Assembly: GCF_000020025.1 (NCBI RefSeq)
Contig: NC_010632.1
Span: 90,001-122,000 of the forward strand
Direction: 5' to 3'
Source of the DNA: Nostoc punctiforme PCC 73102
Lineage (GTDB): Bacteria > Cyanobacteriota > Cyanobacteriia > Cyanobacteriales > Nostocaceae
DNA: 32,000 nt
The notes under the pieces were generated by a model that saw nothing but the letters and a program-made list of their open reading frames with translations, did no database searches and was not told where the DNA came from. Below are positions 3,901 to 19,383 of the stretch, piece by piece (position 1 is the stretch's first letter; the number at the start of each line of letters is the position of its first letter). A program made the position numbers and the translations under genes.

Positions 3901-6295
3901 CAATCTCAAGGAAATCCCTACCGATCCCTTAACATCCCGCCGCTTGCAGGGTAACGATAAACCCAATATTTCGGTTAACCAATTTTTCCAAGGTTTTTAC
4001 CAAACCAACGCCTTGCAAATCCAAACAATGGAAGGGCGAGAACATACCGGACAGGTAAGCAACAAAGACCGTCAAGAACGGGAAGAAAAATTCCGTCAAG
4101 GACAATTAGCTGCATTGTTTTGTTCTCCAACAATGGAATTAGGCATCGACATTTCCGACCTTAGCGTTGTCCATCTCCGAAACGTTCCTCCCAGCCCCGC
4201 TAATTACGCCCAACGTAGCGGTCGTGCTGGTAGAAGCGGACAGCAAGCTTTAGTCATTACTTATGCTTCCATTGGTAGCGGTCACGATCAATACTTTTTC
4301 AAACGACAAAATCAAATGGTTGCTGGGGTAGTTGCTCCACCAAAATTAGAATTGGCCAACCAGGATTTAATTAAATCTCATGTTTACTCGATTTGGCTGG
4401 CACATACTGGGGTTTACTTGGAAGATTCCATGAATAAAATCTTGGATTTAGAATTAGAAAACTATCCCCTCAAAGACAGCATTCGCCAACAACTTACCCT
4501 GAGCCAAGCCAAATTAACCCAATGTCTGCAAGCTGCCCAATCTATCTTCTCAGACTTTTTCTGCCAAGAGGATCTACAAAAAGCTTCTTGGTATTCTGTA
4601 AATTGGTTACAGAATACCATCGAAAATGCTCTGAATGCTTTTGACCGTGCCTGTAAGCGTTGGCGAGATTTATATATAGAGTCAGTTAAACAGTTAGAAT
4701 CTGCCCGTCGCACTATTGACCGTTTTGCTAGAGGTGATATTGCCCAGGAAGAACGTAACAATGCCGAAGCTCAGGCACGAGAAGCACAACGACAAATTGA
4801 TTTACTCGTAGGACACAGCCAAGGTAAGAGTAATTCCCAGTTTGAATTTTATCCCTATCGTTACTTTGCTGCCGAAGGGTTTTTACCAGGGTTCAACTTC
4901 CCCCGTCTGCCAGTCCGAGCATTTATTCCGGCTGGTGAAGGTGGTGAATTCATCTCTCGCCCTCGCTCAATGGCATTACGGGAATTTGCTCCCAATAATA
5001 TCCTTTACTACGAAGGTAGTAAATTCATGGTGGCCAAAACAAAAGTTCCCGTTGGGGGCATTGAAGGCGAGTATAAACGGGTGAGTGTCTGCGCTAACTG
5101 CGGGTATTACCACGACGGCGATTTTCGTGACACTTGTGAAAACTGCGGTGCAGAAATTAAACCTGATGCTCATGGCAATGTAGCCAAATTGACTCGTGTA
5201 CTGCCAATGGAAACTGCGATCGCTCGTCGTCGAGAACGCATTACCTGCGATGAAGAGGAACGGCTCAAGTACGGCTACAACATCACCACTCATTTCCGCT
5301 ACGCTAGCCAAAAGCGGGAATCAGCTATTGTTCAAGCTGCTGACGGTACGCCATTGTTCAAGTTAACCTATGGAGCTACAGCTACCATTTGGCGAATTAA
5401 TCGGGGACTGAAGAAGAATAGAGAAGAACGAGGATTTAAGCTCAATCCAACAACGGGTGTATGGGGCGACCATAAAAATCCACAGGCTCAACAGACACCC
5501 GATAGCTTGCATACCGAAGTGAATTTAATGGTCGATGATACTTGCAATATCTTGATTGTTGAGCCATTAAATGTTCCTGTTGAGGATAGAGAAGCTTTTA
5601 TTGCCACCCTGCAATACACTTTGGAAACTGCAATTCAAGCCGTTTACAAATTAGAAGCTGATGAACTCGACTCCGAACGACTAGGCGAAGGCAAGTATTT
5701 ACTGTTCTGGGAAGCTGCTGAAGGTGGTGCAGGTGTACTCTCTCAGCTATTAGAAAAACCAGAGGCATTTAGAAAAATTGCTGATGCAGCTTTCGACATT
5801 TGTCATTTTACACAACCTAAAGACAGTTGTATTCAAGCTTGCTATGAATGTTTGCTTTCTTACCGCAATCAATTTGATCATGCACTGATAAATCGTCATT
5901 TAATCAAACCTTGGCTTGACCTCTTACTGGAGAGTAGCGTTATTACTCAAGTCAAAGGGCTTTCTCGCGATCAGCAATATCAAAAATTGCTGGAACAGAC
6001 AGATCCTAACTCTGATTTTGAGCGTGTGGTTTTGCAAGAGATTTATCAACGGGGCTACAAATTACCCGATGCCGCACAGCAATTTATTCCAGAAGCAAAC
6101 TGTAAGCCAGATTTTGTTTATGAGGAGGAGGCGATCGCTGTTTTTTGTGACGGTTCTGTTCATGATAGCCCCGATCAGCGCAAGCAAGATAAAATTGAGC
6201 GCGATAATCTTAGGTATAATACTGGCTATACTGTGCTGACATTACGTCATGATGAGGATTGGCAAACAAAATTGGATATTTTAGCGGGTCTATAA
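947..6295 (+). CDS. Giant DExH-box SF2 helicase fused to MrfA/DUF1998-type Zn-binding domain and C-terminal DUF559/Vsr-like endonuclease domain
   Basis: 1782-aa ORF. Helicase motifs: TGTGSGKS (Walker A), DELH (motif II), TSAT (motif III), QRSGRAGR (motif VI). Cys pairs: CRECGQDYY/CLNCGVLH and CANCGYYHDG...CENCG. These are followed by EAAEGGAGVL and CIQACYECLLSYRNQFDH, which is DUF1998-like. The C-terminus KPDFVYEEEAIAVFCDGSVHD...RDNLRYNTGYTVLTLRHDE resembles the DUF559 PD-(D/E)xK fold. Confidence 0.9.
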   Translation: MKLPIKLQDLLQQNESAIVAASTFLSQKLALLDCTGVVTVTSEQLALLFSSIPEDWDFQEFEELLNISTVNPIFYHQLQEWINQRLGNTQAEPPSTNEELANTNDLDIFNFRNEVIDDYRRYIESFLKIRDRKVKEFVDAELDKGQLWTDPLVQLNPSYKKGATAKELVQQQILHPDSEKYFCRKDGTPFTFHYHQKQAFETAQRQQPYVVTTGTGSGKSMTYVVPIFDDLLRHPEILGVRAILVYPMNALINSQKEELDKFLRQVPNTHIRVEKYTGQESLTRKTEIQNNPPHILLTNYVMLELMLSRTHENKLVESPNLKFLVLDELHTYRGRQGADVAILIRKLRQRSKSNDELLCIGTSATMSTVGSREQRRQVVADVASKLFGVEIKPSNVIDETLERSIQRVEPTIEQLCQGILAGLPTELEQTLTEFRNHSLSHWIEMNFGLEEREGHLVRRQPISLETGATKLAEQTQLVEETCLTVLKQMFLWGSKTNGLAFRLHQFISQGGSVYATIENRDKRHLTLEGQYTTTDNRLLYPLVFCRECGQDYYVVRYDADKHIILPQLPTALDISPDDADITEGYLTLDEPELWDTSDEDRLPDSWFSETKKKGRVAKKDFVRFIPRKLQILPNGKVTSSLLQETTCWFIPKPFLTCLNCGVLHDKKRNEFAKLSRLSSEGRSTATTLLCLSTTSRLKQVFTGEKAKAAKILSFTDNRQDASLQAGHFNDFVQTSFLRAALLGAIQAKGKLTHSELASVVVQYMGITQNDYAKQAAEFGVGKRRNEEAFRKLIEYRLYEDLRRGWRIVQPNLEQCGLLIIEYDGLQEACADNNLWQKHRHPLLLQATPQQRFIITQAFLNHLRRELAIDAKLLQPDQKDSLKSEVIQALKEPWVFDENEYLYLATWATISTGGNEKAKVKLTTRSKIGRFLRSPNTWSLRSQLLTDVEFNSLITTLIDALCDAGYLVQEKSEVQLRIDSLLWKATNLKEIPTDPLTSRRLQGNDKPNISVNQFFQGFYQTNALQIQTMEGREHTGQVSNKDRQEREEKFRQGQLAALFCSPTMELGIDISDLSVVHLRNVPPSPANYAQRSGRAGRSGQQALVITYASIGSGHDQYFFKRQNQMVAGVVAPPKLELANQDLIKSHVYSIWLAHTGVYLEDSMNKILDLELENYPLKDSIRQQLTLSQAKLTQCLQAAQSIFSDFFCQEDLQKASWYSVNWLQNTIENALNAFDRACKRWRDLYIESVKQLESARRTIDRFARGDIAQEERNNAEAQAREAQRQIDLLVGHSQGKSNSQFEFYPYRYFAAEGFLPGFNFPRLPVRAFIPAGEGGEFISRPRSMALREFAPNNILYYEGSKFMVAKTKVPVGGIEGEYKRVSVCANCGYYHDGDFRDTCENCGAEIKPDAHGNVAKLTRVLPMETAIARRRERITCDEEERLKYGYNITTHFRYASQKRESAIVQAADGTPLFKLTYGATATIWRINRGLKKNREERGFKLNPTTGVWGDHKNPQAQQTPDSLHTEVNLMVDDTCNILIVEPLNVPVEDREAFIATLQYTLETAIQAVYKLEADELDSERLGEGKYLLFWEAAEGGAGVLSQLLEKPEAFRKIADAAFDICHFTQPKDSCIQACYECLLSYRNQFDHALINRHLIKPWLDLLLESSVITQVKGLSRDQQYQKLLEQTDPNSDFERVVLQEIYQRGYKLPDAAQQFIPEANCKPDFVYEEEAIAVFCDGSVHDSPDQRKQDKIERDNLRYNTGYTVLTLRHDEDWQTKLDILAGL

Positions 6296-6335
6296 CCTAT
6301 ACTAAATTCTGTTATTTCTACTTGATAAAAAGTTT

Positions 6336-7739
6336 TTAGCCAAATCCACGATTGGAACTACTTGAATTTCTAGTATTCCCACTTGCTTTGATTTTTACAA
6401 TGTGGATTGTCTCTGCCATAACTTGACCATTCTTTTCGATTTGACAGGTCATGCGGTGATTACCTTTATAGGCTGTGCTTGTCCACTTTGTGGTTGCGCT
6501 ATCGCTGCTTTCCCAACAAAGCTGTTCTGCCTCTTGTGCTTCATCTCCTTCGTTATTAACGATCCATCGTACACTATAGGGCTGTGGTACATTTGTTGAC
6601 ACGACAGTAAATTTGAGTGCAACACCTTTCGGTAAGATAGAGCTTCCACTCAAATAGTGCTTATAAGTCGGCCCATTTTCATATTTGGCGAGATCACAAC
6701 GAATTGTTAGATTGTATCTTGCTATAGCAATTACATCGCCAAAGTCAATAACCTTTTTACTCTCTTTCGCCACCCAAAATTGATGGTTAAAAACCCAATC
6801 CCAAGCCGAACGTGCTTTTTCTCTTGTACATGAATGGTTAAATAATACCTCAAGTTTATCAATTGCAACTTTAAGATTATCCCGAAGCCGAATAACTTGA
6901 TTTAATATTTCAGTTTTACCAGTTAGTTCCTGTGACTTATCAACTGGATTGTACACTTTACAAGAGACTGTTAACCGATTATGTAAAGCTACCATAGTGT
7001 CGTAAAGTGCAATATCGTCACGCTCACCGTTCGGTTTGTAAACTCCTGACTCAGCTATTAGTGTTGAGACAATCATGCCACCAGGTAAGCTCCAAGAGAT
7101 TCGGGAACGGCAAAACCATTTTAAAAAACGTACAATACGACGCATTTGCCCTTCTTTAACTTTGGGGTAATACCCAAGTATAAAATTGGCTTTTGGGCTG
7201 AATGTGTCAACACATTCAGCAAACCAATTATTAATCTGCATTGGATCTCGGCGTTTCCACTCTGTACTGGCGTGTTCGATACGTTTTATGCCAAATTCAT
7301 CTATATAGGTACGGTAGATTGCAAAGTCAATATGGTAGCCTTCTGCATACCAAACTGTAACTGCATTAGTACGAGCCTCTGGTTCTTTTGTAAAATTAGT
7401 GCAGCGTTTATATAAAGCGTCACGTACACGTTGGCGTGCTTTGAGTGGGTTTTCTGGTATTTCGTCTCTATGAAAAATTAGAGCAATATCAATATCGTAG
7501 TCATTATCATTATTTGGATCTTTATTAAGAGTATGCATGGCATAGCCACCTTGATTCTTAGAATCATAGGGATGTGGATGTAGACAATTAGTTTCTTTTT
7601 TAAGATCGTCTAATCCATTTTTAAGTCTGGTAATATTTAGATCCCGATAGCCAGCAAGCTGTTGTCTTAGTTCTCCTCCAAGACGAACATGATGGTCATA
7701 AAAATACTGTAAATCATTGGATATGTCATACATGAACAT
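6336..7739 (-). CDS. SMODS / CD-NTase-like nucleotidyltransferase with C-terminal AGS-C-like beta-rich sensor domain
   Basis: 467-aa ORF that starts 6 nt after the upstream stop. It has an N-terminal helix typical of CD-NTases. The Pol-beta NTase signature is GGYAMHT...DYDIDIA, with a third acidic strand YHIDFAIY and RDPMQINNWF. The tail (last ~135 aa: PYSVRWIVNNEGDEA...YKGNHRMTCQIEKNGQVMAE) resembles the AGS-C domain fused to SMODS enzymes and cyclases. Confidence 0.75.
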   Translation of the reverse strand: MFMYDISNDLQYFYDHHVRLGGELRQQLAGYRDLNITRLKNGLDDLKKETNCLHPHPYDSKNQGGYAMHTLNKDPNNDNDYDIDIALIFHRDEIPENPLKARQRVRDALYKRCTNFTKEPEARTNAVTVWYAEGYHIDFAIYRTYIDEFGIKRIEHASTEWKRRDPMQINNWFAECVDTFSPKANFILGYYPKVKEGQMRRIVRFLKWFCRSRISWSLPGGMIVSTLIAESGVYKPNGERDDIALYDTMVALHNRLTVSCKVYNPVDKSQELTGKTEILNQVIRLRDNLKVAIDKLEVLFNHSCTREKARSAWDWVFNHQFWVAKESKKVIDFGDVIAIARYNLTIRCDLAKYENGPTYKHYLSGSSILPKGVALKFTVVSTNVPQPYSVRWIVNNEGDEAQEAEQLCWESSDSATTKWTSTAYKGNHRMTCQIEKNGQVMAETIHIVKIKASGNTRNSSSSNRGFG

Positions 7740-7745
7740 ATAATT

Positions 7746-10700
7746 TTATTCCTGAGCATTACTAATAATTGGAGTAGTCCAGACAACTCTAGATTCAGGG
7801 GAATTACTACCATTAATCTTTATGCCCCAGGCATACCGAGGTTGTGTATGGGCTGTGTAATTGTAAACGATAACCTGATGATGAATAGTTCTACTGATTC
7901 TGCGTCCAAGACTAAAACCAAGGCTAACGGGCCCTGTGTAAAAGATATGCACGACAAGTGATTTATCAAGACGGTTATGCAAATCATCAAGTACCTGTCG
8001 AAAAGCTTGGCAGATTTTGTTTACCTGGCTATAATGACTAATTGCATCAATTCGTCGCTTCCCAATTTGAATCAAAATATCTTCATAGGGCTGAGATAAT
8101 ACATCATCTACATCACTCTTTAAGATGTCAAACGAAATGGCAATTCTGATAGCAACTGCAACAGGATTTTTTACTCGTGAGATAATAACATTTAACTCTA
8201 TCTCTGGACTATCGCTACTTGCAAGTTGATACCAGCAATTTGTATTACGATCTAACTCAAATAAAAACACCTTAGGCCAGGTTGAAAAAGCATAACCTAC
8301 ACAGAACTGAAGTGGAATGTGAACAATACCGTAGTAACCGATTTTTCCTTCTGAGTTAGCTTTGAATAATTTTAAAAAACCATTTATAAATTTGTCATTT
8401 TGTTTTACAGCACTACTAGGATCGCAAATGCCACCTATATAGAAAGATGACTGATCAAACTCTATATGTTGAATTTTATAATCTCGAATGTTATGTGGTA
8501 AATCTTCTTTTGAAATAAGACCAGTTAGCAGTTCAAATGAATGGTGACGAATAGCAAAGAATGTTCGCTGCGAAAACTGGACATTTGAGTTAGATATTAT
8601 TAATTGGTCTTCTTTTTTAAAAGTTCCATATCGCAATTTGATATCGTACCTTGGCACTGGATTATTTTTATCGCTCCAACGAGCATCCGCAGACCAAGCC
8701 CCGTCAGCCTTCTCTTTCTTTCGTGTCTCAACCGTCATCACTCCGCTTTCTGGGTCAAGAGTTAGCAAGTTGTACTGAAGTGGTATACCTGTAACCTGCT
8801 CCTTAGCAGGTGCGCCAAAAGTTCCAGCAGCAATAATTTTGATACCACGTCGTGTATCGTACTGAAAATTCTCGTCTTTTGCTTCATGGATGTGTCCGTG
8901 AATCCCAACTTGGAAATCATTAACTGCTAACTGTTCTAGAAAAGCTGTATTTTTCATTGACTCAGCACCATTAACTGGATGATGCCAGACAGCGATTTTC
9001 AGCCAGCCGTCGTAGTTTCCTGTAAGAATTTGGTCAAGCGCACTGGAGATTGCATTAGGATGAATACCAGCGCGATTTCTATATTCGTGGTCAATCTCCC
9101 AACAGGAATTAAGCCCTAAAAAGAGGATTTTATCTTCAGGACAAAAGTGAATAATTGCTTGCTGGTCATATTCTTGAGGATAAGGTTTATTGTAAATTTT
9201 TTTATAAAAGCGATCGCTAAAATATTCAAACCGTTTTTTATACTCACTCTCATCACAAATTAATGCGCCTGCACTACCTGCATCAATATATTTTCCTTGT
9301 GGTAAGGGATTAGGTAGTTTGCGCTTCGGAACGAAAGTATAAGCAGTTTCTGATAATTCCCAGTTGAGGTCATGGTTTCCAGGAACTATAACAATCCGGC
9401 TAGGGTCAAGCCCGTAGCGTTTGACCAGTTTATCAACCAGTTCAAAAGCTGCATCGTATTCCTCTTGTGTTGAACGATTGGCGATATCGCCGGAAATTAC
9501 CAAGTAGTTAAGCTGTTTTACATTAAGATTTTGGGTCAGGTCGGTAGCCAATTGCGTAAAGTAGCGTTGTGCTTGCGCTGTAGTCACTAAATGAATATCG
9601 GATAGATGGAGAATGCGTATTTGCTTGTCTGCATTGTTCATGTATATTTCTTTATCATGGTAGAATGCGTTAACTTCTTCTTCAGTGCGTTTTTCTACTG
9701 TAGTCCTTAGTTCCTGTTGTTTTTCAGGTAACAATTCAGGTGGCAGTTTGTCTATTGCAGATGCGGCAATCTTACGCACATCAGTATCTTTATCATTTAA
9801 AGTCTTGATGATTTCTTGTATTGAGATATTGTCCTGAGATAATTCTTGATAAGACGGCTCTAACTCTTTCGCTAACTCTGTATACTTTCCACCCAAACGC
9901 CTCAAAACCTTCGCTGTAATTTGAGCAAAAGGACGAATAAAAATACTACTACTTGAACTATCTACAGCCAACGCTGGATTCACTAACATTGCTGTGAATT
10001 CATCAACAGATAATCCAGCCCGTTGCGCCAAATACTCCGAAAGCCTACGCAATACCTCAGTTGATTCTGTTAGCGGAACTGCATCAAGCAGCAAATCTCG
10101 TATACCCTCAATAAAATCAAATTGAATTTTATCGGTATCTACATTATCATTGACTAGCGATAAAGGTTTTAAGATGCCAGCTAACAATACCTCAGCTACA
10201 TGAACTTGGCTCGACTTCTGTAGCATTGTCTGCTGTATCAATCTTACAATTGGTAAACTAATTGGGACAGCAGCCAAAAGTCCTGCCAGTTTCCTTGCCA
10301 TTGGCGAAGCAGTGAGGCGAAAGCGTTGCAAACGTTGTTTGGCTGTAAGCTCGATGTTGGAATTTTCTGTTGATTCGCTACTAACATCAAGTATTTCTCC
10401 ATCCAGTGCAAGCAAAAAACCTTTGGTTTGCACCTCTCCCGCACCTGCAACCATCCGCGTCCAATTTTTCAGCGATTCTGGTTCTAGCGTCACTACAGGG
10501 ATTTTTAGCTTGTTTACAACATCGCTTTCATTAAGCAAATCCAACGCTGTCATGATTAACTGTTGGTTGGGGACTCCAGGAGCCAAACTGCGTAGTAAAA
10601 TTGACTCGGCAAGACCCAAAGTGCTTCTTTCCCACAGCCACTCAGGTAATACTTGAATTATCGTTGTTGGGCTAGTATTAGCCCAAGCTGCTAAAGTTTT

Positions 10701-11459
10701 GGTAACAGCACCGTTATACCAAGCTGGGGAAACGCAATCGCTGATAATTATAAACAGCCGCCGACCGTTGGGATCAATTAGTTCTCTGGGGTTGTGTAAC
10801 CTTTTTTGCCGAGATAGGTTGCCAGTTCTGGGACGCAGCCAAACTTTGCTATCTTTATCGGTAAATAATCCCCAAGTTCGCACGTCTCGAAAAGCACCAT
10901 GTCTTTCCAGTAGTTGCTTAAATTCCTTAATGGTTTGCTGCCAGAGGAACATCGATGTTCCCTCGTCTATCACCAAAGCCACTTCTAGCCAGCGATCGCG
11001 TGCGGGACACATTACGGGTAATAAAAGCTTTTCTTCAGCAATGCGTTCTGCGGTAGCGATTTCGTCGAGGATAAATTCATTTCTGGAGGGAACTCGACGT
11101 TTTAAAGGTTTGAGGGAGCGGGATATTTCTAATTTGTTTCGTAATGCTTGAGCGGTAGGAACTTTAATGGGTAAACCGCTTGAGGTTTCGTTGTTATCCT
11201 GCGAAGATTGAGGATATACATTAGCATTAGCTTCAGTTTTATTGATAGATTTTGAGAAATTTATATTTTGCTCTAACGGTAATTGGGGTGAAGCTGAGAC
11301 TGTTTTTTGAGTAGATGCAGAGTTTTGTTGTTGCGTTTCAGATACAGATGAGGACTGAGAGCTACGCATTTGCACAGCCAACCAGAGGATATCTGCAATT
11401 TCGGTATCGGTTAAATCAAACCCCAGGTTTTGAAAAGCACCAATTACCCTTTCAATCAT
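7746..11459 (-). CDS. Multidomain vWA protein: SAV_2336-type N-terminal domain + vWA + helical region + HEAT-like repeat + calcineurin-like metallophosphoesterase + SAVED nucleotide-sensor domain
   Basis: 1237-aa ORF.
- aa 1-31: [31 protein letters not shown], the N-terminal domain typical of vWA partners of MoxR in ternary conflict systems.
- aa ~35-100: S/Q-rich linker.
- aa ~155-285: vWA, with [13 protein letters not shown] as the MIDAS region and LFIIISDC.
- aa ~545-580: HEAT-like ([17 protein letters not shown]).
- aa ~613-905: all five phosphoesterase motifs ([37 protein letters not shown]).
- aa ~995-1215: SAVED-like ([16 protein letters not shown]...[21 protein letters not shown]...VIVYNY...YAWG). 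Confidence 0.8.
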
Positions 11460-12406
11460 ATATCCTCTGCGCTTGTGAGATATTTCATTAGTGCATTGAG
11501 GAGTCGTTCTTTATCATCCCCGGCAGGACTCCTTTCACGGGTTACTAAATAAATAGCATTAAGCAACTGATCTGTTGCTAAATCGCCTGCATCGCTTCTG
11601 TCTCGACGCTTTACAAATTCACTAATTAAGACCTCTGCTTCTGACATTATCTCTTCCCCTAAATGTGCTTGCACAATTCTTTTTAATGCTGCTTCATCGG
11701 GGTTTTCCATTGTCAAGCGCAGACACCTCCGTAAAAATGCTGGAGGAAATTCCCTTTCTCCATTGCTAGTTAATAGCACAAAAGGAAATTGAGTACAACG
11801 CACCCGTCCTTTATTGATAGTGGCAACATTACCATCATAAGTGCGTACTTGTACCGTCTGGTATTCTTGGGGTAATCTGGCTAATTCGGGTATTTCAAAT
11901 TCACCTTCCTCAAATATATTGAGTAAATCATTCGGTAAATCAATGTCACTTTTATCAATTTCATCGATTAGCAAAACATGAGGATGAGATGATGGTAAAA
12001 GTGCTGTTCCCAAAGGGCCAAGTTGAATATATTTACCAATATTTTTGGTATTATCCTTGCCTTGAGAATCTTGTAGACGAGCGATCGCATCATAGCGGTA
12101 AAGCCCTTCTTGCAGAGTTGAGCGGGTGGTGATGGGCCATTGCAGTACAGAACCTAGTTGGAGTTCGTCAGCAACTTTGTAAGCAAGAGAGGTTTTACCA
12201 GTCCCCGGTTTTCCAGTCACCAGCAAAGGACGGCGCAGGTAAAGTGCTGCATTTACAAGCTCAATTTCATTACGACGAACTTGAAAGGTTTGTCCACGCT
12301 CCTTCTCCTTGGCATCCCCAAACTCACGCCATTTTGGTGGTTTTGGAAGATTCTTGATTCCATCATGTGGTGAGTCTGTACCTTGGAAAATCAGCCAATC
12401 GCTCAT
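11456..12406 (-). CDS. MoxR-family AAA+ ATPase (vWA-MoxR-VMAP system ATPase)
   Basis: 316-aa ORF. Motifs: Walker A GKPGTGKT, Walker B LLIDEIDK, sensor-1 LLTSN, Arg finger region PPAFLRRC, and an N-terminal [10 protein letters not shown] motif. An AGGAG sits 6 nt upstream of the ATG. The stop overlaps the next gene's start by 4 nt (ATGA). Confidence 0.85.
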
Positions 12407-12420
12407 TGCTTACTCCTAAA

Positions 12421-13641
12421 TTATGATGAAGAAAACTTCAATGCTGGGTTTGGCGGTATTCGATTGGGGTCATCCCACCATAAGACTAAATGATTACCCA
12501 AGTGCATTTCATGGTCAGATCCTAAACGACGTTGTTCTCTAACGCAGGTGGACAGTTCGTGCAATGGTTTTTTTAGTAACGCATCAAAGTGTTCAGGATT
12601 TTTGAGACTGTTTAGCTCACAACGTGACCAAATTATAATCGGTGTCCCAGCACTGTGGATTGCACTAAGTAGACCACTTCGCTCTGAGTCTGATAAATCA
12701 CAGCAGATTTTAAGAATAATTTTCTCAAATAGCATATCTCTCAATTTTTTGGGATCAAAACGAGCTTGAGAAACTGTTATAGCCTGCTCATAACAGGGAG
12801 GAGCTTGCCAAGTTAGTCGAACATTTTCCCAATTTCTGCGCCAATATGAACTTTGCTGTGTGCGTAATTTTTTCAGTCGATCGTAGGAACGCACTACAAC
12901 CCGAAAATCCTTACCAATAGTGATATTACAATCTTCGTCATCCTTATATTCCCATTTTTCCACCTCATCACATAGGTGATCGCGCGGTAGAAAAATTTCA
13001 ATAGTTAACTCTGTCGGTTGTCCTTGCAAGTATTCCTCAAAACATTGCTGGAGCAATTTACTGAGCAATATTGGTAATTTCTCCGGCACAAGTATAATTT
13101 CTGGCTGTTGCTCGTCAACAGTTAGAGGTTTAAAACGTTCCCAAGTATCTTCAATTGTATCGTCAGGAATAAACCAAGCTTTGACATATAATTCTCTGCT
13201 TCCTTCTGGTCGAAGTTGAATGAGCAGATAGGAATGCAGTGATTGTACGGATGTAGTTTTACTACTAGCTTCAAAAGATTCATTAGTTAATATCTGTTTG
13301 AGTTTTTGGCGGATAGTTTGAGGAATATTGTTGTCTTGAGTTAGCAAACAAATAAATTTTAATAAAGCAGAATTATTAGGGTTTGAGTAAGGAATTTCTT
13401 CTAATTGCTCAAGTACATCATTAACGTCTTTAGGTTTGTCTCTCCAGTCGAACCATCCATCAGGAGCGATTTTAGAGAAAGCTTTATTTATCGCATCATC
13501 ATCTGAAATATTTAAAAATAAAAGATTTATTTGGTTTTTAATATTTTGTTGTGTAATATCTCTTGTGGTTAAGTTTCCGCCCACTAGTAAATCTTTTAAA
13601 ATGTCTTGTTGGCTTTCTAAACTTAGTTTTTTCTCGCTCAT
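12421..13641 (-). CDS. VMAP (vWA-MoxR-associated protein) with VMAP-C-like C-terminal domain; no recognisable effector domain
   Basis: 406-aa ORF and the first gene of the operon. C-terminal half: LLIQLRPEG..YVKAWFIPDD, LTIEIFLPRDHLCDEVEKWEY, FRVVVRSYDRL, GTPIIIWSR. It ends in LGNHLVLWWDDPNRIPP, which matches the hallmark G-x-HL-x-LLWDDP-x-R-x-P ending I recall for VMAP-C. Confidence 0.65.
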   Translation of the reverse strand: MSEKKLSLESQQDILKDLLVGGNLTTRDITQQNIKNQINLLFLNISDDDAINKAFSKIAPDGWFDWRDKPKDVNDVLEQLEEIPYSNPNNSALLKFICLLTQDNNIPQTIRQKLKQILTNESFEASSKTTSVQSLHSYLLIQLRPEGSRELYVKAWFIPDDTIEDTWERFKPLTVDEQQPEIILVPEKLPILLSKLLQQCFEEYLQGQPTELTIEIFLPRDHLCDEVEKWEYKDDEDCNITIGKDFRVVVRSYDRLKKLRTQQSSYWRRNWENVRLTWQAPPCYEQAITVSQARFDPKKLRDMLFEKIILKICCDLSDSERSGLLSAIHSAGTPIIIWSRCELNSLKNPEHFDALLKKPLHELSTCVREQRRLGSDHEMHLGNHLVLWWDDPNRIPPNPALKFSSS

Positions 13642-13889
13642 TGTTGATAAGCTATTTATAGGTGATTAAATAGTTTGATTGGGATTAGGCTTAGGCAGAT
13701 TGCTCATACTTTATCGGGTTTATGTAAAATTTTTGTAACTAATAGTAAATCTAGATGAAATTATAATTATGAAAATAGACAATCGTATTTTTTACTAAAA
13801 CACTATTTTATCCGACATTTTCTCAAAAAAAGCTATATTTTAAATACTTGAAATTTTATACTTATTTATTTGTAAATGGAGAATAAAAC

Positions 13890-14375
13890 ATGATTGACCC
13901 AGTATCCCTTGTTGCTGGAGTAGTGACAACTGTTCTTCTGCCAAAAGCTTTAGAGAAAGTAGGCGAGAAAATTGGCGAGACTGCCTGGGATAAAAGTGCA
14001 GAAGCTATCCAGAATGTACGTGAAACAGTCCAAGCGAAGTTGCAAACTGCCGGGACTACTGGATTGCTAACACGAGCAGAAACCAACCCAAATGAAGTAA
14101 ATACGCAGGTCTTGCAAGCGGAAATTGTAACTCAGATGCAGGAAGACCAAGATTTTGCAACGAAGTTACAAGAGCTAGTTAAGCAAATGCAATCCCAATC
14201 TCCGACTGTACAAGTAATTCTGAAGGAGCTTCGAGTTAGGGGTAAGGTCGAAATTGGTAATATTAAACAAATCAATGAGGGGCAAAGCAATGCTCAACAG
14301 AAGTTTGGTAAGAATTGGCAAGTAGGCGGAGATGTTAAAGTTGGGGATGTAACCCAGGAAAACCGAAGTGTCTAA
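13890..14375 (+). CDS. Hypothetical small protein (hydrophobic N-terminus, Q/E-rich helical middle, G/V-rich repeat tail)
   Basis: 161-aa ORF with GGAG 8 nt upstream of the ATG. It is transcribed divergently from the VMAP operon across a 248-bp AT-rich spacer. No family was recognised. Confidence 0.6.
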   Translation: MIDPVSLVAGVVTTVLLPKALEKVGEKIGETAWDKSAEAIQNVRETVQAKLQTAGTTGLLTRAETNPNEVNTQVLQAEIVTQMQEDQDFATKLQELVKQMQSQSPTVQVILKELRVRGKVEIGNIKQINEGQSNAQQKFGKNWQVGGDVKVGDVTQENRSV

Positions 14376-14732
14376 TGATCAGTCGGGAGAAAATCAACAG
14401 CCGAACCTTAGTACATTGTTACAAAACCGAATGGCACGCCCCTTAAAGCTAAATCGACTATAAGACCTATGGGTGTGGGGTTTAGTAATAAAGGAATTTA
14501 TTAAGGTTGCACTTAATTTTGGCTTTTCTGATTTTTTTCCTACACCCTGCACCCAACCGTCTAAACTTAGCTACAGCAAGAGTTTCACATTTTCAAGCGG
14601 GATATACCTTTTCGCCTGCAACCCTGCCCAAACCTTTGATGCCGCAAGGTGTTTATCACCACTGCTAAATCTGGAAATTAAAACTCCTAAAGGCTTTCAG
14701 TGATTGGCCTCTCCCAAAGTTACAGAAGAGGG

Positions 14733-15083
14733 CTAATCGCTAATCCCATATTCCCGCTCAATCAAACCCAACAACTTCTCCTCTACTGTAGTCAAATAAG
14801 GTCGCTTCAACTCACCCAGGTACTTCAACATAGTACTTGGTGCATCTTCTAAGCTTTCATTTTCCCGTAACCGACCAATGCGATCGCAAATCACTCGCAT
14901 CTGCTCACACTCGGCAGGCAAGTAGTTGTACGACTTCAGGTATTGCAACCCAACTGTATACTCACCATCCCAGGTTTTGACGGTGCAGCTAAATTCATCC
15001 ACATGGTTGACTATGCCCCAGCAGCCGCCTTTATTTCTGAGTTCGGGATTATCTTTGGCAAGAATCTGACAGACTTCGCACAG
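14733..15083 (-). pseudogene. 5'-truncated paralogous copy of the 3' end of the 16340..17293 gene
   Basis: The frame is open only from 15083. Its translation, EVCQILAKDNPELRNKGGCWGIVNHVDEFSCTVKTWDGEYTVGLQYLKSYNYLPAECEQMRVICDRI..., is collinear with the last 115 aa of the 317-aa protein. The homologous segments are both 345 nt long (14733-15077 vs 16340-16684). Homology ends abruptly at ~15078, with a stop at 15084-15086. Confidence 0.6.
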
Positions 15084-15230
15084 TTAATAAAGCATAGGTG
15101 ATACCAAGACAAAGTAATACATTTTTCTGTAATTTACTTTGTATTATATAAGTAGCATAAGGAAAACTCTTATTCTTTCGTAACAAACCTGTGCCAGCTT
15201 TTACTTGATCGCGCTAAAAGGAGAGTGGTG

Positions 15231-15770
15231 ATGAAAAAAGTAGCAGTGTTTGGCAATACTGGAGGCGGTAAATCAACTTTAAGCAAGAGATTATCCCAAG
15301 TCACTGGTTTACCACTTCACGTCTTGGACAAGATTCAATTTGAATCAGGAGGAACCCAGGTTCCAGATGAAGACTTTTTAAGCGCCCATCATCAAATTTT
15401 AGCTACTGAGCGATGGATTATTGACGGGTTTGGTTGTATGGAAACCCTCTGGTTACGGCTGGACAAGGCGGATACTCTAGTTTTTGTGGATCTCCCGCTA
15501 TATCTGCATGGATGGTGGGTCACTAAACGACTAATCACTGGTTATTTTAAACCCCCAGATGGCTGGCCTTCTAATAGTCCAATTTTGAGGAGTTCCCTTA
15601 ATAGCTACCGTGTGCTTTGGTTATGTCACAAATATTTGACCCCAAAATATCGTGAGTATATCAAACAAGCTCAAAGCATCAAGAGTGTTTATCACATTCG
15701 CTCGACTAAAGAAATTTCACAATTTTTTGGATTAATTGAGCGTCAGACTAACTTAAAAGATGGTGTATAA
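15231..15770 (+). CDS. P-loop NTPase, adenylate-kinase / topology-modulation (FlaR)-like
   Basis: Walker A FGNTGGGKST sits at the N-terminus, followed by WIIDGFG and LVFVDLP strands. The ATG at 15231 is preceded by AAAGGAGAG. The ORF track instead starts at the GTG at 15225. Confidence 0.75.
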   Translation: MKKVAVFGNTGGGKSTLSKRLSQVTGLPLHVLDKIQFESGGTQVPDEDFLSAHHQILATERWIIDGFGCMETLWLRLDKADTLVFVDLPLYLHGWWVTKRLITGYFKPPDGWPSNSPILRSSLNSYRVLWLCHKYLTPKYREYIKQAQSIKSVYHIRSTKEISQFFGLIERQTNLKDGV

Positions 15771-15773: not shown

Positions 15774-16295
15774 ATGGAAATCCGATTTTTAAACACCCAG
15801 GATGTCGTCGTTTACCGCGAACTACGTCTGCAAGCATTAAAAGACTCACCCACGGCTTTTGGTTCCAGTTATGAGGAGGAATCGTGTTTTTCTTTGCCCG
15901 ACTTTGCTGCCAGACTTCGCCCTCACAATGATCCTGCCAACAGTATTTTCGGTGCTTTTGGCAACACAGACAAACTTATTGGTATGCTCGGCTTCTCACG
16001 TGAGAACCGTTTGAAGCGTTTTCACATTGGTTCTCTGTGGAGTATGTATGTTTTGCCTGAGAATAGAGGGCAAGGCGTTGGAGCCGCGCTTCTTGATCGG
16101 GTATTATCCCATGCTCGATGCCTTAGTGGTCTGCGACAGATTTCCCTCACGGTCACTACAAACAATTTACCAGCCTGCTCTCTTTATCAGTCACGGGGTT
16201 TTGAGCGTTTTGGCAAAGAGCATAATGCTTTGTTTATTAATGGTACATATTTCGATGAGGAGCATCTGGTACTATACTTCAACCATGATGTCTAA
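15774..16295 (+). CDS. GNAT-family N-acetyltransferase
   Basis: 173-aa ORF that starts 3 nt after the preceding stop. The acetyl-CoA motif A is VLPENRGQGVGAALLDRVLSHAR, and there is a C-terminal YQSRGFERFG motif. Confidence 0.85.
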   Translation: MEIRFLNTQDVVVYRELRLQALKDSPTAFGSSYEEESCFSLPDFAARLRPHNDPANSIFGAFGNTDKLIGMLGFSRENRLKRFHIGSLWSMYVLPENRGQGVGAALLDRVLSHARCLSGLRQISLTVTTNNLPACSLYQSRGFERFGKEHNALFINGTYFDEEHLVLYFNHDV

Positions 16296-16339: not shown

Positions 16340-17293
16340 TTAGAACTGTATCTCATCATATTCCGATTCCAGAACATTCAACAATTTTTCTTCCAACCCA
16401 GTCAAATAAGCCCGATTGAGCTTCCCTAACGACTCCAAAAACTTTTGTACCGATTCCTCTAGCCCACTCGAATACACCTGATTAATGCGATCGCAAATCA
16501 CCCGCATCTGCTCACACTCCGCAGGCAGGTAATTGTAGGACTTCAGGTACTGCAACCCAACCGTGTACTCCCCATCCCAGATTTTGATAGTACAGCTGAA
16601 TTCGCCCACATGGTTAACTATGCCCCAGCACCCGCCCTTGCCTCTAAGTTCGGGGTTATCTTTGGCTAAAATTTGGCACACCTCCCCGATCTGGTAGGTA
16701 TTGGGTACTTTAGTGCGTTCCATTATCTGCTGCACCACATCCTTCACGATTCTACCACTTGGGACTTTACCCTCTGCTTGTTCTACCGCCTGCTGCCATG
16801 CTTCTGGCTGTTGTTGAGGTTCTAGCTTTGCCAGAGGGCGAACTTGTACTTCTGATGTAGGCAAAATTTGGGAACTATTAGTTCCCATTTCATGAGATTT
16901 TTCATTTTGGGAACTATTAGTTCCCATTTTTATGTTGTCAACTATCACTGAACCAGCTATTAAATAATTCACATGGCGGTAAGTGTATGCAAAGCGAAAA
17001 CGGCAATATTCCTCAAAAGTTTTGTGCGTGGAACGATATAATCTGCGATCACGGAGTTCCATCAAAGCCTTTCCTGCTTCAAAAAACGCCCTTTCTACTT
17101 TGCGTTCGAGGCTGAGGCGATCGCGTTCTTCTGCCTCTGTTAGCTCAGGGACTTCAACAGCAGTAACAGTGATTGTTGCTGAAGCTGGGTTTTTTTCTTG
17201 CGAGATATCCTCAAGGTCTTGGTCATCTGGTGATGTGCTGTCACTGGATGCAGAGATGGTGGCTTTTTTGCGCTTACGGGTTGATTTGTCCAT
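16340..17293 (-). CDS. Hypothetical phage/plasmid-type protein (acidic N-terminus, helical putative DNA-binding core, SH3/KOW-like C-terminal domain)
   Basis: 317-aa ORF and the last gene of the XRE-led minus-strand operon. The core ERAFFEAGKALMELRDRRLYRSTHKTFEEYCRFRFAYTYRHVNYLI resembles plasmid/phage ParB-associated helical domains. The C-terminal 115 aa are duplicated at 14733-15077. Confidence 0.7.
   Translation of the reverse strand: MDKSTRKRKKATISASSDSTSPDDQDLEDISQEKNPASATITVTAVEVPELTEAEERDRLSLERKVERAFFEAGKALMELRDRRLYRSTHKTFEEYCRFRFAYTYRHVNYLIAGSVIVDNIKMGTNSSQNEKSHEMGTNSSQILPTSEVQVRPLAKLEPQQQPEAWQQAVEQAEGKVPSGRIVKDVVQQIMERTKVPNTYQIGEVCQILAKDNPELRGKGGCWGIVNHVGEFSCTIKIWDGEYTVGLQYLKSYNYLPAECEQMRVICDRINQVYSSGLEESVQKFLESLGKLNRAYLTGLEEKLLNVLESEYDEIQF
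16867..16929. repeat. Two direct copies (39-bp period) of TTTGGGAACTATTAGTTCCCATTT, each containing the inverted repeat GGGAACTA-T-TAGTTCCC
   Basis: Read directly from the sequence: copies at 16867-16890 and 16906-16929, inside the 16340..17293 CDS. They encode MGTNSSQ twice. Confidence 0.8.
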
Positions 17294-18225: not shown

Positions 18226-18246
18226 TTCCTAATTCTTACTCCTTAA

Positions 18247-18382
18247 AGTAGCACTACTTTCAGTTGGTTATCTGTGGTATGTATATCCATAAGTAATCTA
18301 AATAATTACTAAGAGTAGCATTACTAATCGTAATACAAAAGTCAGACTTAGACTATTGCTAACTACTCACAGTAGCGCTACT
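18247..18382. promoter_or_regulatory. Three operator-like 12-bp palindromes AGTAGC-N2-TACT in the divergent XRE spacer
   Basis: AGTAGCACTACT at 18247-18258, AGTAGCATTACT at 18314-18325, and AGTAGCGCTACT (perfect palindrome) at 18371-18382. AGTAAT/ATTACT half-site-like copies lie in between. Confidence 0.45.
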
Positions 18383-18454
18383 ATAAGTAGTACATAAAGA
18401 AAAAGCAATACAAAAGACGACCGACTGAGCCTGAGAAACTTCCGCGATCGCCTT

Positions 18455-19361: not shown

Positions 19362-19383
19362 TAATCATTTACTCATTACAAAT

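What the first reader, a model, noticed from the sequence alone, without database searches (positions are those of the whole stretch)
6336..13641. Hybrid of a vWA-MoxR-VMAP ternary system and a CBASS-like SMODS/SAVED signalling pair in one four-gene operon
Seen in sequence: the minus-strand genes VMAP-C protein (406 aa), MoxR AAA+ (316 aa), vWA...phosphoesterase-SAVED (1237 aa) and SMODS-type NTase (467 aa) are packed together. There is a 14-nt gap with AGGAG, a 4-nt ATGA overlap, and a 6-nt gap. The catalytic motifs of the ATPase, phosphoesterase and NTase all look intact.

Established: vWA-MoxR-VMAP ternary conflict systems (described by the Aravind group) and CBASS (a CD-NTase/SMODS synthase plus a SAVED-fused effector) are each known as separate system types.

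Inference:
- The nucleotide sensor (SAVED) is covalently attached to the vWA subunit that a MoxR chaperone is expected to remodel, and the synthase is the last gene of the same operon.
- None of the usual CBASS regulators (E1/E2/JAB-type Cap2/Cap3, or HORMA plus TRIP13) is present. The MoxR/vWA/VMAP trio may play the gatekeeping role that the TRIP13/HORMA AAA+ pair plays in type III CBASS.
- I do not recall this architecture being described, so it is the best candidate for a new system.
Basis: partly seen in the sequence, partly recalled or inferred. Interest (0 to 1): 0.9.

Follow-up and report, generated by a model that had tools for sequence, protein, structure and literature searches.

The report
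CBASS effector grafted onto MoxR–vWA system
In one strain of the cyanobacterium Nostoc punctiforme, recombination has welded the sensor and effector half of an ordinary two-gene anti-phage signalling system (CBASS) onto a subunit of a second, poorly understood defence machine (VMAP–MoxR–vWA), giving a real but so far one-off hybrid operon that could serve as an experimental handle on that machine.

Summary
Four tightly packed minus-strand genes encode VMAP (M1+C), a MoxR-type AAA+ ATPase, a 1237-aa vWA–metallophosphoesterase–SAVED protein, and a CD-NTase with an AGS-C domain. All catalytic motifs are intact. The window is from Nostoc punctiforme PCC 73102 (ACC85233–ACC85236).

The operon is not a conserved system type. 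It is a strain-specific mosaic with two sharp in-frame breakpoints:
- Window 9724–13615 is 94% identical to a ternary system whose vWA protein carries HEAT-like repeats.
- Window 8623–9727 matches a phosphoesterase module found in other conflict proteins.
- Window 971–8622 is 93–94% identical (the synthase locally 98–100%) to two-gene Type I CBASS loci (CHAT–SAVED + CD-NTase) in other Nostocales, with the same downstream helicase.

I found no other vWA…SAVED fusion in any collection searched.

Kaur et al. (2020) already list SAVED and calcineurin-type phosphodiesterase among vWA-fused domains and propose nucleotide-signal gating of such systems. They do not describe a linked SMODS/CD-NTase gene.

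The idea that the MoxR trio gates the cyclase as HORMA/TRIP13 does is not supported, because near-identical AGS-C cyclases work in two-gene operons.

Most likely the cyclase signal acts on SAVED to activate the phosphodiesterase, and the ternary part adds control at the effector end. Verdict: new variant of a known kind, moderate interest.

The parts
12421..13641 (-). VMAP gene (406 aa). It has a short N-terminus with no peptidase, cyclase or EAD domain, then VMAP-M1 (residues 46-142) and VMAP-C (151-392).
   Evidence: Pfam VMAP-C 114 bits and VMAP-M1 72 bits. It is 85% identical in amino acids to the VMAP of L021, with dN/dS 0.36.
11456..12406 (-). MoxR-type AAA+ ATPase (316 aa) with Walker A at 65-72, Walker B at 145-152 and Arg residues at 226-227.
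   Evidence: Pfam AAA_5 36.7 bits. NCBI names it 'MoxR family ATPase'. It is 97% identical to the L021 MoxR, with dN/dS 0.13.
9729..11459 (-). vWA module of the 1237-aa protein (residues 1-577). It contains the SAV_2336 N-terminal region with the vWA domain (Asp165, Asp241). It ends in a single remnant HEAT-like repeat (about residues 547-577, window 9729-9821).
   Evidence: NCBIfam NF041121 scores 536 bits. Window 9724-13615 is 93.9% identical to L021, whose vWA protein continues with a repeat array. The best fold hits to the model are vWA domains (NorD, CMG2) but are weak.
9724..9729 (-). Breakpoint 1 (residue 577/578). The protein reads …[11 protein letters not shown]|[12 protein letters not shown]…. 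The junction is in frame with at most 2-3 nt of microhomology.
   Evidence: The homology ranges to L021 and L009 abut here.
8625..9728 (-). Calcineurin-like metallophosphoesterase module (residues 578-945) with all five metal-binding and catalytic motifs present.
   Evidence: Pfam Metallophos. It is 87.7% identical in DNA and 91% in protein to L009, and up to 92% to P0122. His46 (module numbering) is invariant in the family alignment. The nearest folds are YydB, Rv0805 and GpdQ.
8622..8623 (-). Breakpoint 2 (residue ~946). The protein reads …KLRYGT|[12 protein letters not shown]…. The CHAT domain present at this position in relatives is absent. The poly-A tract is interrupted (AAAAAAGAAG).
7746..8624 (-). 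SAVED sensor module (residues 946-1237) plus the stop codon.
   Evidence: Pfam SAVED 135 bits. It is 89% identical to the CHAT–SAVED proteins P0139 and L007. It matches solved SAVED proteins 9om7 and 7rws.
6336..7739 (-). CD-NTase (SMODS) with a C-terminal AGS-C domain (467 aa). The NTase core covers roughly residues 1-330 and AGS-C covers 340-451.
   Evidence: Pfam DncV-like_NTFase and AGS_C. PADLOC Cyclase 680 bits. The alignment to 8ysd and 7ljo shows conserved catalytic residues. It is 96% identical to the L022 and L023 cyclases.
8623..14876 (.). The ~6.25-kb segment (phosphoesterase module, vWA module, MoxR, VMAP, divergent orf161). Relative to the syntenic loci L022 and L023, it replaces ~1.55 kb carrying a 192-aa gene and the CHAT domain.
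   Evidence: The window is collinear with L022/L023 over 971-8622 and again from 14877.
13890..14375 (+). orf161, a small gene with no family assignment. It is divergent from VMAP here and in the related contig L020, so it travels with the ternary cassette.
   Evidence: No Pfam, PADLOC or NCBIfam assignment.

Best explanation
What it is (shown): a strain-specific chimeric defence operon on a 254,918-bp replicon of Nostoc punctiforme PCC 73102. Recombination at domain boundaries joined three pieces:
- The VMAP–MoxR–vWA core of a HEAT-repeat-type ternary conflict system.
- A calcineurin-like phosphoesterase module that circulates among cyanobacterial conflict proteins.
- The SAVED sensor plus CD-NTase–AGS-C cassette of a Type I CBASS. 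In relatives this cassette has a CHAT protease as its effector.

How it most likely works (inferred):
1. The AGS-C cyclase senses infection by itself, as in Type I CBASS, and makes a cyclic oligonucleotide.
2. The signal binds the C-terminal SAVED domain of the 1237-aa protein.
3. SAVED-driven oligomerisation switches on the adjacent phosphoesterase. Its fold is closest to nucleotide and phosphodiester hydrolases such as Rv0805 and GpdQ. It would destroy nucleotides or phosphodiester substrates and abort infection.
4. The N-terminal vWA domain tethers this effector to the MoxR hexamer and VMAP. These add ATP-dependent restraint or release, or a second VMAP-M-mediated input, at the effector. 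They do not act on the cyclase.
For: Identity and domains.

Mosaic origin:
- Homology to L021, L009, L007, L010, L022 and L023 switches abruptly at window 9724-9727 and at 8622/8623.
- Independent database hits reproduce the same module boundaries: 1-577, 579-951 and 940-1234.
- L009/L020 shows the phosphoesterase–CHAT–SAVED + cyclase operon lying divergently next to a VMAP–MoxR–vWA operon. The parents are therefore natural neighbours.

CBASS half is a normal Type I unit:
- CHAT–SAVED + cyclase pairs with the same 6-nt junction occur in L007/L008.
- AGS-C is typical of Type I.
- Phosphoesterase followed by SAVED is an existing CBASS effector layout, and PADLOC PDLC00736 aligns in one stretch over residues 614-1213. 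A review also lists calcineurin-like phosphoesterase–SAVED effectors (PMC10419184).

Effector chemistry:
- The nearest solved folds are Rv0805 (1.8e-9) and GpdQ (1.8e-7), well ahead of the DP1 exonuclease-type hit at ~5e-3.
- The catalytic residues are conserved.

Phosphoesterase is also a stand-alone effector fused to vWA in a canonical ternary system (L031).

No sign of decay:
- The 3.7-kb ORF is intact and both junctions are in frame.
- dN/dS is 0.06-0.40 for every module.
- Private changes at invariant columns number 0-1 in the phosphoesterase, SAVED and cyclase modules.

A general framework of nucleotide-signal-gated deployment in ternary systems is already published (PMC7159879).
Against: - The fusion is a singleton, so there is no comparative evidence that selection maintains the four genes together. 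dN/dS against cousins mostly reflects history before the fusion.
- No experiment exists for any VMAP ternary system in the literature I could search, so the role of MoxR/vWA/VLAP-type control is extrapolated from other MoxR–vWA pairs. (Here the trio is MoxR, vWA and VMAP.)
- The substrate of the phosphoesterase is unknown. Fold similarity is modest (TM 0.44-0.68) and sequence-level PDB hits are marginal, with SbcD at E 0.006.
- The ancestral executioner (CHAT) has been lost, so effector potency is uncertain.
- The vWA fold assignment rests on weak structural hits (E ≥ 0.017, model pLDDT 66).
Confidence: 0.6

Rival explanations
1. This is a neutral or recent recombination accident. The operon behaves as a plain Type I CBASS, or is partly crippled by loss of CHAT. 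The vWA/MoxR/VMAP part is a passenger with no functional coupling, and the fusion persists only because it is young.
For: - It is a singleton at 90% clustering, and no second instance was found in any search.
- Modules are 86-100% identical to unfused counterparts.
- The neighbourhood is in visible flux. There is a Tn3 insertion in the L009 cyclase, frame-shifted CHAT|SAVED alleles, and a duplicated gene fragment at the cassette edge.
- Junctions have almost no microhomology, as expected for illegitimate recombination.
Against: - Both junctions are in frame and lie exactly at domain boundaries.
- The resulting phosphoesterase–SAVED spacing matches that of a known CBASS effector family.
- Translational coupling signals are preserved.
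- All catalytic motifs are intact, and there is no excess of damaging private substitutions.
- The slippery poly-A tract at the junction has been interrupted, which fixes SAVED in frame.
Confidence: 0.27
2. The MoxR/vWA/VMAP trio is the regulator of signalling. It stands in for HORMA/TRIP13 or Cap2/Cap3, and it licenses or resets the cyclase, defining a new CBASS type.
For: - An AAA+ ATPase sits in the same operon as a CD-NTase, and no other CBASS regulators are present.
- MoxR gives weak P-loop-only hits to the PADLOC TRIP13 models.
Against: - The cyclase carries AGS-C, reported only in Type I (regulator-free) CBASS.
- Cyclases 96% identical in protein, and locally 98-100% in DNA, sit in two-gene operons without any such trio.
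- The trio is physically fused to the effector, not the cyclase.
- There is no HORMA-like or closure-motif partner.
- The TRIP13 similarity is limited to residues 52-89.
Confidence: 0.07
3. The phosphoesterase–SAVED tail is not the killer. It is a signal-handling or decoy module. One option is that SAVED captures the cyclic oligonucleotide and the phosphodiesterase cleaves it, giving a self-limiting off-switch. The other is that the tail baits phage anti-CBASS proteins. In either case the ternary machine would deliver the actual response.
For: - Kaur et al. classify the vWA-fused calcineurin domain as an enzyme 'cleaving cyclic nucleotides'. They also argue that many vWA-fused domains act as decoys or binders (PMC7159879).
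- The nearest solved fold is the cyclic-nucleotide phosphodiesterase Rv0805.
- Papers returned report ring-nuclease activity associated with SAVED proteins (for example PMC12751052, title and abstract only).
Against: - No other effector domain is encoded in the operon. VMAP here lacks a peptidase, cyclase or EAD N-terminus.
- Phosphoesterase–SAVED proteins are listed as CBASS effectors.
- The same phosphoesterase is the only enzymatic domain on the vWA protein of a canonical ternary system.
- The active site is intact rather than degenerate.
Confidence: 0.12

Closest known systems
vWA–MoxR–VMAP 'classical' ternary conflict systems (Kaur, Burroughs, Iyer & Aravind 2020, eLife, PMC7159879)
   Same: - Strict VMAP→MoxR→vWA gene order.
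- VMAP-M1 and VMAP-C domains.
- A MoxR AAA+ ATPase with Walker and Arg motifs.
- A vWA protein with two conserved Asp residues and a hypervariable C-terminal effector region.
- A filamentous cyanobacterial host.
- That paper already lists SAVED and a calcineurin-type phosphodiesterase among the vWA-fused domains, and it suggests nucleotide-signal-dependent deployment.
   Different: - The signal generator is a separate SMODS/CD-NTase–AGS-C gene taken from a Type I CBASS. The paper discusses cNMP cyclase, GGDEF, RelA, TIR and PNPase domains instead.
- VMAP has no N-terminal peptidase, cyclase or EAD domain.
- The effector region is demonstrably a recent graft. It keeps one remnant HEAT-like repeat from the previous effector.
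Type I CBASS with a CHAT–SAVED effector and a CD-NTase–AGS-C cyclase (e.g. loci L007/L008, L014, L022/L023 here)
   Same: - The SAVED module and cyclase are 84–96% identical in protein sequence.
- The 6-nt SAVED-stop to cyclase-start junction is the same.
- The downstream convergent DruE-like helicase is the same.
- No Cap2/Cap3 or HORMA/TRIP13.
   Different: - The CHAT protease is replaced by vWA + phosphoesterase.
- Two extra upstream genes (VMAP, MoxR) are translationally coupled to the effector gene.
- The poly-A tract at the CHAT|SAVED boundary is disrupted.
CBASS calcineurin-like phosphoesterase–SAVED effectors (PADLOC PDLC00736; listed in review PMC10419184)
   Same: The domain order (phosphoesterase then SAVED) and spacing are the same. 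The model aligns in one stretch over residues 614-1213 at 137 bits.
   Different: - Here the arrangement was assembled secondarily from a phosphoesterase–CHAT–SAVED or equivalent parent.
- It carries a 577-aa vWA module at the N-terminus.
- No member of that effector family is biochemically characterised as far as I could find.
Type III CBASS (HORMA + TRIP13 AAA+ regulators)
   Same: An AAA+ ATPase is encoded in the same operon as a CD-NTase.
   Different: - There is no HORMA protein.
- The ATPase is MoxR-clade, not TRIP13/Pch2.
- The ATPase's partner (vWA) is fused to the effector, not bound to the cyclase.
- The cyclase is of the regulator-independent AGS-C kind.

Membership tests
VMAP–MoxR–vWA ternary system | Conserved gene order: VMAP, then MoxR, then vWA, tightly linked. 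| tested here: met
   Coordinates and junctions show a 14-nt gap and a 4-nt overlap. The order matches that stated in PMC7159879.
VMAP–MoxR–vWA ternary system | A third component with a VMAP-C domain and a variable VMAP-M region. | tested here: met
   Pfam VMAP-C scores 114 bits (cut-off 27) and VMAP-M1 scores 72 bits (cut-off 25).
VMAP–MoxR–vWA ternary system | A MoxR-clade AAA+ ATPase with Walker A, Walker B and an arginine finger. | tested here: met
   AAA_5 scores 36.7 bits against a cut-off of 22. The motifs are located. NCBI names it 'MoxR family ATPase'. The clade-defining helix-2 insert was not examined.
VMAP–MoxR–vWA ternary system | A vWA domain with two conserved Asp residues at the ends of strands 1 and 4. 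| tested here: met
   Asp165 is more than 90% conserved and Asp241 is invariant in alignment A2. They lie at the ends of predicted strands 159-165 and 234-240. The fold search puts vWA domains on top, but only at E 0.017-0.05, so fold-level support is weak.
VMAP–MoxR–vWA ternary system | A hypervariable C-terminal effector region on the vWA protein that differs between close relatives. | tested here: met
   The top 120 relatives share 40-94% identity over the N-terminal ~45% of the protein. Their C-termini differ: HEAT, AAA_35, CHAT, caspase, FGS, GUN4, GTPase and others.
CBASS (Type I) | A CD-NTase with an intact catalytic G[GS]…[DE]x[DE]…[DE] active site. | tested here: met
   Pfam and PADLOC hits. 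The alignment to 8ysd and 7ljo shows NQGGYAM, D82-x-D84 and D138 conserved.
CBASS (Type I) | An adjacent effector gene carrying a cyclic-oligonucleotide sensor (SAVED) fused to an effector domain. | tested here: met
   SAVED scores 135 bits and lies C-terminal to Metallophos. The effector gene ends 6 nt before the cyclase start.
CBASS (Type I) | No ancillary Cap2/Cap3, HORMA/TRIP13 or other signature regulators; a two-gene core. | tested here: inconclusive
   None of the known regulators is present, and AGS-C is typical of Type I. However, the operon has two additional co-transcribed-looking genes (MoxR, VMAP), which the Type I definition does not foresee.
CBASS (Type I) | Phage-triggered synthesis of a cyclic oligonucleotide that activates the effector and protects the population. 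| not testable with these tools
   This needs phage challenge, LC-MS of the product and binding assays.
Type III CBASS | A HORMA-domain sensor plus a TRIP13/Pch2 AAA+ remodeller acting on the cyclase. | tested here: not met
   There is no HORMA hit in any ORF. The TRIP13 PADLOC models match only the P-loop of MoxR (residues 52-89, E 3e-6 to 5e-4).

The most novel reading that the evidence does not exclude
The fusion is a working dual-input device. A cyclic-oligonucleotide signal from a Type I CBASS cyclase (read by SAVED) and an ATP-driven MoxR–vWA–VMAP remodelling step (possibly triggered through the variable VMAP-M region) must both occur before the phosphodiesterase is released. That would be a previously undescribed mode of CBASS effector control. 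It would also be the first ternary conflict system with a chemically defined trigger.
Probability: 0.25. Interest if true: 0.75.

Novelty: new variant of a known kind. Interest (0 to 1): 0.45.

Why it matters
In the literature I could search, VMAP–MoxR–vWA ternary systems have only been described computationally, with no experimental study. This operon attaches a ligand-gated sensor from the well-understood CBASS pathway, and its dedicated synthase, to the vWA subunit. If the parts are functionally coupled, it gives a defined chemical input for probing how a MoxR–vWA–VMAP machine restrains or deploys its effector. N. punctiforme PCC 73102 is a cultured strain sequenced in many independent public runs.

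Independently of function, the locus is a clean, nucleotide-resolved example of how defence systems are rebuilt. In-frame recombination at domain boundaries joins neighbouring modules on a mobile replicon. The same SAVED + cyclase cassette is found joined to CHAT, caspase, TCAD3–CHAT, phosphoesterase–CHAT and vWA–phosphoesterase heads.

Its general importance is limited because it is so far a single-strain construct, and because the underlying idea (nucleotide-gated ternary systems, SAVED on vWA) is already in print.

Tried and rejected
Searches for a second instance of the fusion all came back negative:
- Full-length protein search: only P0001 itself carries vWA + SAVED among the best 120 hits.
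- C-terminal half as query: no hit spans the phosphoesterase and SAVED together.
- HMMER search of the SAVED module against 1.84 billion cluster representatives: the best 150 are all 821 aa or shorter.
- Genome scan with the cyclase: 5 loci, none with VMAP, MoxR or vWA.
- Metagenome scan with the whole protein: 6 loci, each covering one module only.
- tblastn against 72,556 plasmids: 80 records, none with both ends.
- Neighbourhoods of eight cyclase, SAVED or phosphoesterase relatives.

These searches favour close relatives and one SAVED subfamily. More distant vWA–SAVED proteins, which Kaur et al. imply exist, may have been missed.

Other dead ends:
- Assembly artefact: rejected.
- Pseudogene or decay: no support.
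- Promoter and terminator scans were at background level and uninformative.
- A sequence search of the phosphoesterase against the PDB gave only marginal SbcD hits, so I used a predicted structure instead.
- A simple single-inversion model from an L020-like ancestor explains the gene order. It also predicts a WD40 gene after orf161, which is not present in the window, so the exact path is unresolved.
- Literature searches for the accession numbers and for CBASS + MoxR found nothing relevant.
- I could not confirm from the tools that the 254,918-bp replicon is plasmid pNPUN02. That identification is my recollection only.
- Figures and source data of Kaur et al. are not held, so I could not check whether this very protein is shown there.

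Full report
**1.

The window carries four contiguous minus-strand ORFs at exactly the stated coordinates. The stated junctions are all present:
- TAA, then 14 nt containing AGGAG, then ATG.
- An ATGA stop/start overlap.
- TAA, then 6 nt, then ATG.

Profile searches confirm every domain call.
- Pfam:
  - 406-aa protein: VMAP-M1 and VMAP-C.
  - 316-aa protein: AAA_5.
  - 1237-aa protein: Metallophos at residues 614-859 and SAVED at 1034-1215.
  - 467-aa protein: DncV-like NTase and AGS_C.
- NCBIfam: the 'SAV_2336 N-terminal' model scores 536 bits over residues 18-482 of the long protein.
- PADLOC: a CBASS cyclase model matches the 467-aa protein end to end at 680 bits. A CBASS effector model (PDLC00736) aligns in one stretch over residues 614-1213. 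PADLOC has nothing for VMAP and only P-loop-level hits for MoxR.

The catalytic and nucleotide-binding motifs are intact.

Pfam gives no vWA hit, so I tested that claim separately.
- The two family-defining aspartates (Asp165, Asp241) are conserved in an alignment of 32 relatives.
- They sit at the ends of predicted strands 1 and 4 of an α/β domain in an AlphaFold model.
- The best structural matches are vWA domains, led by NorD of the NorQ(MoxR)–NorD complex, but E-values are weak at ≥ 0.017.

The proteins are ACC85233–ACC85236 of Nostoc punctiforme PCC 73102, on a 254,918-bp replicon. The same fused ORF recurs in assemblies of many independent sequencing runs, so it is not an assembly artefact.

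**2. What it really is: a nucleotide-resolved mosaic**

Searching with the whole 1237-aa protein shows that the N-terminal ~45% is shared at 40-94% identity with hundreds of cyanobacterial proteins. Their C-termini are all different. Searching with the C-terminal half alone found no protein that covers both the phosphoesterase and SAVED. The two halves have separate close relatives:
- Up to 92% identity for the phosphoesterase, in proteins that also carry CHAT, EAD8, GTPase or SLOG domains.
- 89% identity for SAVED, in a 486-aa CHAT–SAVED protein.

DNA comparison gives two sharp breakpoints.

Breakpoint 1:
- Window 9724-13615 (VMAP, MoxR and the vWA module) is 93.9% identical to a metagenomic Nostoc ternary system, L021. 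Its vWA protein continues with an array of HEAT-like 'KLPPELLP' repeats.
- The window's protein keeps the first repeat and then switches in frame (…[11 protein letters not shown]|[12 protein letters not shown]…) into the phosphoesterase module.

Breakpoint 2:
- Window 8623-9727 matches the phosphoesterase of locus L009 at 88%.
- At 8622/8623 the homology jumps over ~700 bp of L009 that encode a CHAT protease domain, and resumes in the SAVED module.
- At protein level, L009 reads …KLRYGT–[CHAT]–[14 protein letters not shown]…, whereas the window reads …[18 protein letters not shown]….

Flanking synteny:
- From 8622 down to 971, the window is collinear at 93-94% with loci in Desmonostoc muscorum FACHB-395 and another Nostocales genome (L022, L023). 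This stretch covers the SAVED module, the cyclase and the convergent 1782-aa helicase.
- Upstream of SAVED, those loci have only a 192-aa gene and CHAT.
- Collinearity resumes at window 14877. A ~6.25-kb block has therefore replaced ~1.55 kb.

Finer mosaicism:
- The cyclase is 98-100% identical to L023 over window 6600-7800.
- The SAVED module is closer to L007.

Independent scans of metagenomes again return the three modules separately, with the same boundaries: 1-577, 579-951 and 940-1234.

One related contig (L009/L020) shows the two parents as divergent neighbours. A VMAP–MoxR–vWA(AAA_35) operon sits back to back with orf161–WD40–(N-term)–phosphoesterase–CHAT–SAVED–cyclase. An exchange of 3' parts between such neighbours would give the window's order. 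A single inversion does not explain everything, because the window has no WD40 gene after orf161.

**3. Is it a system type?**

I found no second instance of a vWA…SAVED protein, or of a cyclase next to VMAP/MoxR. The 1237-aa protein is alone in its 90% cluster. These searches favour close relatives and one SAVED subfamily, so distant analogues cannot be excluded.

**4. Is it functional?**

There is no sign of decay.
- Both junctions are in frame and lie at domain boundaries.
- Removing CHAT leaves a phosphoesterase-to-SAVED spacing that fits an existing CBASS effector family.
- Every module shows purifying selection against its relatives, with dN/dS 0.06-0.40.
- The window's copies have 0, 1 and 0 private changes at otherwise invariant columns in the phosphoesterase, SAVED and cyclase modules. 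The vWA module has 4.

These tests mostly read history before the fusion, so they do not prove that the combination is selected.

**5. Likely mechanism**

The cyclase belongs to the AGS-C-fused class. That fusion is reported to be specific to Type I CBASS, which has two genes and no ancillary regulators. It is also implicated in phage-range specificity (bioRxiv 10.1101/2023.05.21.541620). Near-identical cyclases sit in two-gene operons. I therefore infer that the cyclase senses infection on its own and that its product is read by the SAVED domain.

The phosphoesterase model (pTM 0.81) is closest to a B. subtilis YydB model, the cyclic-nucleotide phosphodiesterase Rv0805 and the diesterase GpdQ. 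It is further from nuclease-type members of the fold. This favours a nucleotide or phosphodiester hydrolase over the 'endonuclease' label that PADLOC carries. The same phosphoesterase is the only enzymatic domain on the vWA protein of a canonical ternary system in Moorena. It can therefore be a ternary-system effector in its own right.

The vWA/MoxR/VMAP part is fused to the effector, so any control it adds should act there. Options are ATP-dependent restraint or release, or a second sensing input through the variable VMAP-M region. This follows the general model of Kaur et al.. The steps from 'cyclase senses' onward are inference.

Rivals are:
- a passenger or accident model;
- a signal-degrading or decoy role for the tail;

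The cyclase type, and the fact that its near-identical relatives lack the trio, argue against the last one.

**6. Comparison with what is known**

Kaur, Burroughs, Iyer and Aravind (2020, PMC7159879) define the VMAP ternary systems.
- In their list of vWA-fused 'nucleotide-dependent signalling' domains they name SAVED ('might recognize oligonucleotides') and 'a calcineurin-superfamily phosphodiesterase'.
- The N. punctiforme genome has been public since 2008, so this protein was within their reach. Their figures and source data are not available to me, and the main text mentions neither this organism nor a linked SMODS gene.

No other paper in the library links CBASS with MoxR or vWA, and none cites these accessions.

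The locus meets the tested criteria of a VMAP ternary system. It also meets those of a CBASS core (cyclase plus SAVED effector). It does not meet those of Type III CBASS.

I class it as a new variant of a known kind. The new elements are the separate CD-NTase–AGS-C generator and the reconstruction of how the hybrid arose.

**7. Side observations**

The most interesting concerns the CHAT|SAVED boundary in the two-gene relatives, which is a poly-A tract.
- It is A10 (in frame, a 486-aa protein) in one organism.
- It is A9 in at least five independent sources, including two isolate genomes. That explains why CHAT and SAVED are annotated there as separate genes.
- In the A9 alleles the tract reads A_AAA_AAG in phase, the classical −1 slippery heptamer. 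A −1 shift would recreate exactly the A10 protein.
- The only predicted downstream structure starts ~29 nt away, so there is no canonical stimulator.
- Programmed frameshifting, transcriptional slippage or phase variation remain open.
- In the window the tract is interrupted (AAAAAAGAAG) and SAVED is fixed in frame.

**8. Verdict**

This is a real, intact and mechanistically suggestive hybrid. It is also a single-strain recombinant whose concept is largely anticipated in print. Interest is moderate (0.45). It would rise if coupling between the MoxR machine and the CBASS signal were shown, or if further independent instances were found.

Noticed in passing
L007 5693-5712; L009 4871-4890; L010-L013, L019, L022 and L023 at the equivalent position; window 8600-8622: The CHAT|SAVED linker of the two-gene CBASS relatives is a poly-A tract. 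It is A10 (in frame) in L007/L008 and A9 in at least five independent sources, which splits CHAT and SAVED into two ORFs. The A9 tract reads A_AAA_AAG in phase, the dnaX-type −1 slippery heptamer, and a −1 shift restores the full CHAT–SAVED protein. This could be programmed frameshifting, transcriptional slippage or phase variation rather than pseudogenisation. The window's allele has the run interrupted. The nearest downstream RNA structure starts ~29 nt away (z −2.85), so there is no canonical stimulator.
   Followed up: partly
window 947-6295 (+), with small ORFs at 25-432 and 460-933; L001, L022 and L023 downstream genes: A 1782-aa DEAD/DEAH helicase with MZB and REase_MTES_1575 domains lies convergent to the cyclase, 40 bp from its stop. 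PADLOC DruE models score up to 309 bits. In related contigs it is preceded by a 149-aa gene, a 1291-1326-aa MmeI/Eco57I-type methyltransferase and an SNF2 helicase. This Druantia-like set is conserved next to the CBASS cassette in several Nostocales genomes.
   Followed up: partly
L009 5756-11203 (same contig as L020): In the related metagenomic contig, a Tn3-family transposase plus an integrase gene split the cyclase gene (residues 1-51 and 46-467). That contig's phosphoesterase also has Gln in place of the first catalytic His (DIQ instead of DIH). This copy of the system looks inactivated.
   Followed up: partly
L024 8447-13132: A Cap15-like cyclic-dinucleotide receptor gene and an mCpol gene (a Panoptes-like pair) sit directly upstream of Trypco2, a TCAD3–CHAT–SAVED protein (732 aa) and a cyclase 80% identical to the window's. 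Here a CBASS effector carries an adaptor domain named for ternary complexes, with no MoxR or VMAP nearby.
   Followed up: partly
window 14733-15002 (−) and 16340-17293 (−): The 89-aa ORF at the right edge of the imported cassette is a duplicated copy of the 3' part of the 317-aa gene 1.3 kb away, with a shared …WDGEYTVGLQYLKSYNYLPAECEQMRVICDRI… stretch. Both map to the same region of L023. A P-loop kinase-like gene (15225-15770) and a GNAT acetyltransferase (15774-16295) lie between the copies. This is a further rearrangement scar.
   Followed up: no
window 13890-14375 (+): orf161 has no family assignment. It is divergent from VMAP both here and in L020, where it heads the WD40–phosphoesterase–CHAT–SAVED operon. 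It may belong to one of the two systems.
   Followed up: no
window 17875-31028: The rest of the window looks like mobile-element or plasmid backbone. It contains a Cro/C1 HTH, DUF1392, KilA-N, a 2OG-Fe(II) oxygenase, a T5orf172/MUG113 protein, a DnaB-type helicase, an ASCH protein, a truncated C5 DNA methylase, and HTH + DDE_3 transposase fragments.
   Followed up: no
L021 3900-13144: The closest ternary-system relative has EAD8–NACHT, EAD8–trypsin and EAD8–VMAP genes upstream of MoxR and a vWA–HEAT-repeat protein. The window's VMAP lacks the EAD8 head, and homology to L021 stops 26 nt inside the VMAP ORF. The ternary cassette is therefore itself mosaic.
   Followed up: partly
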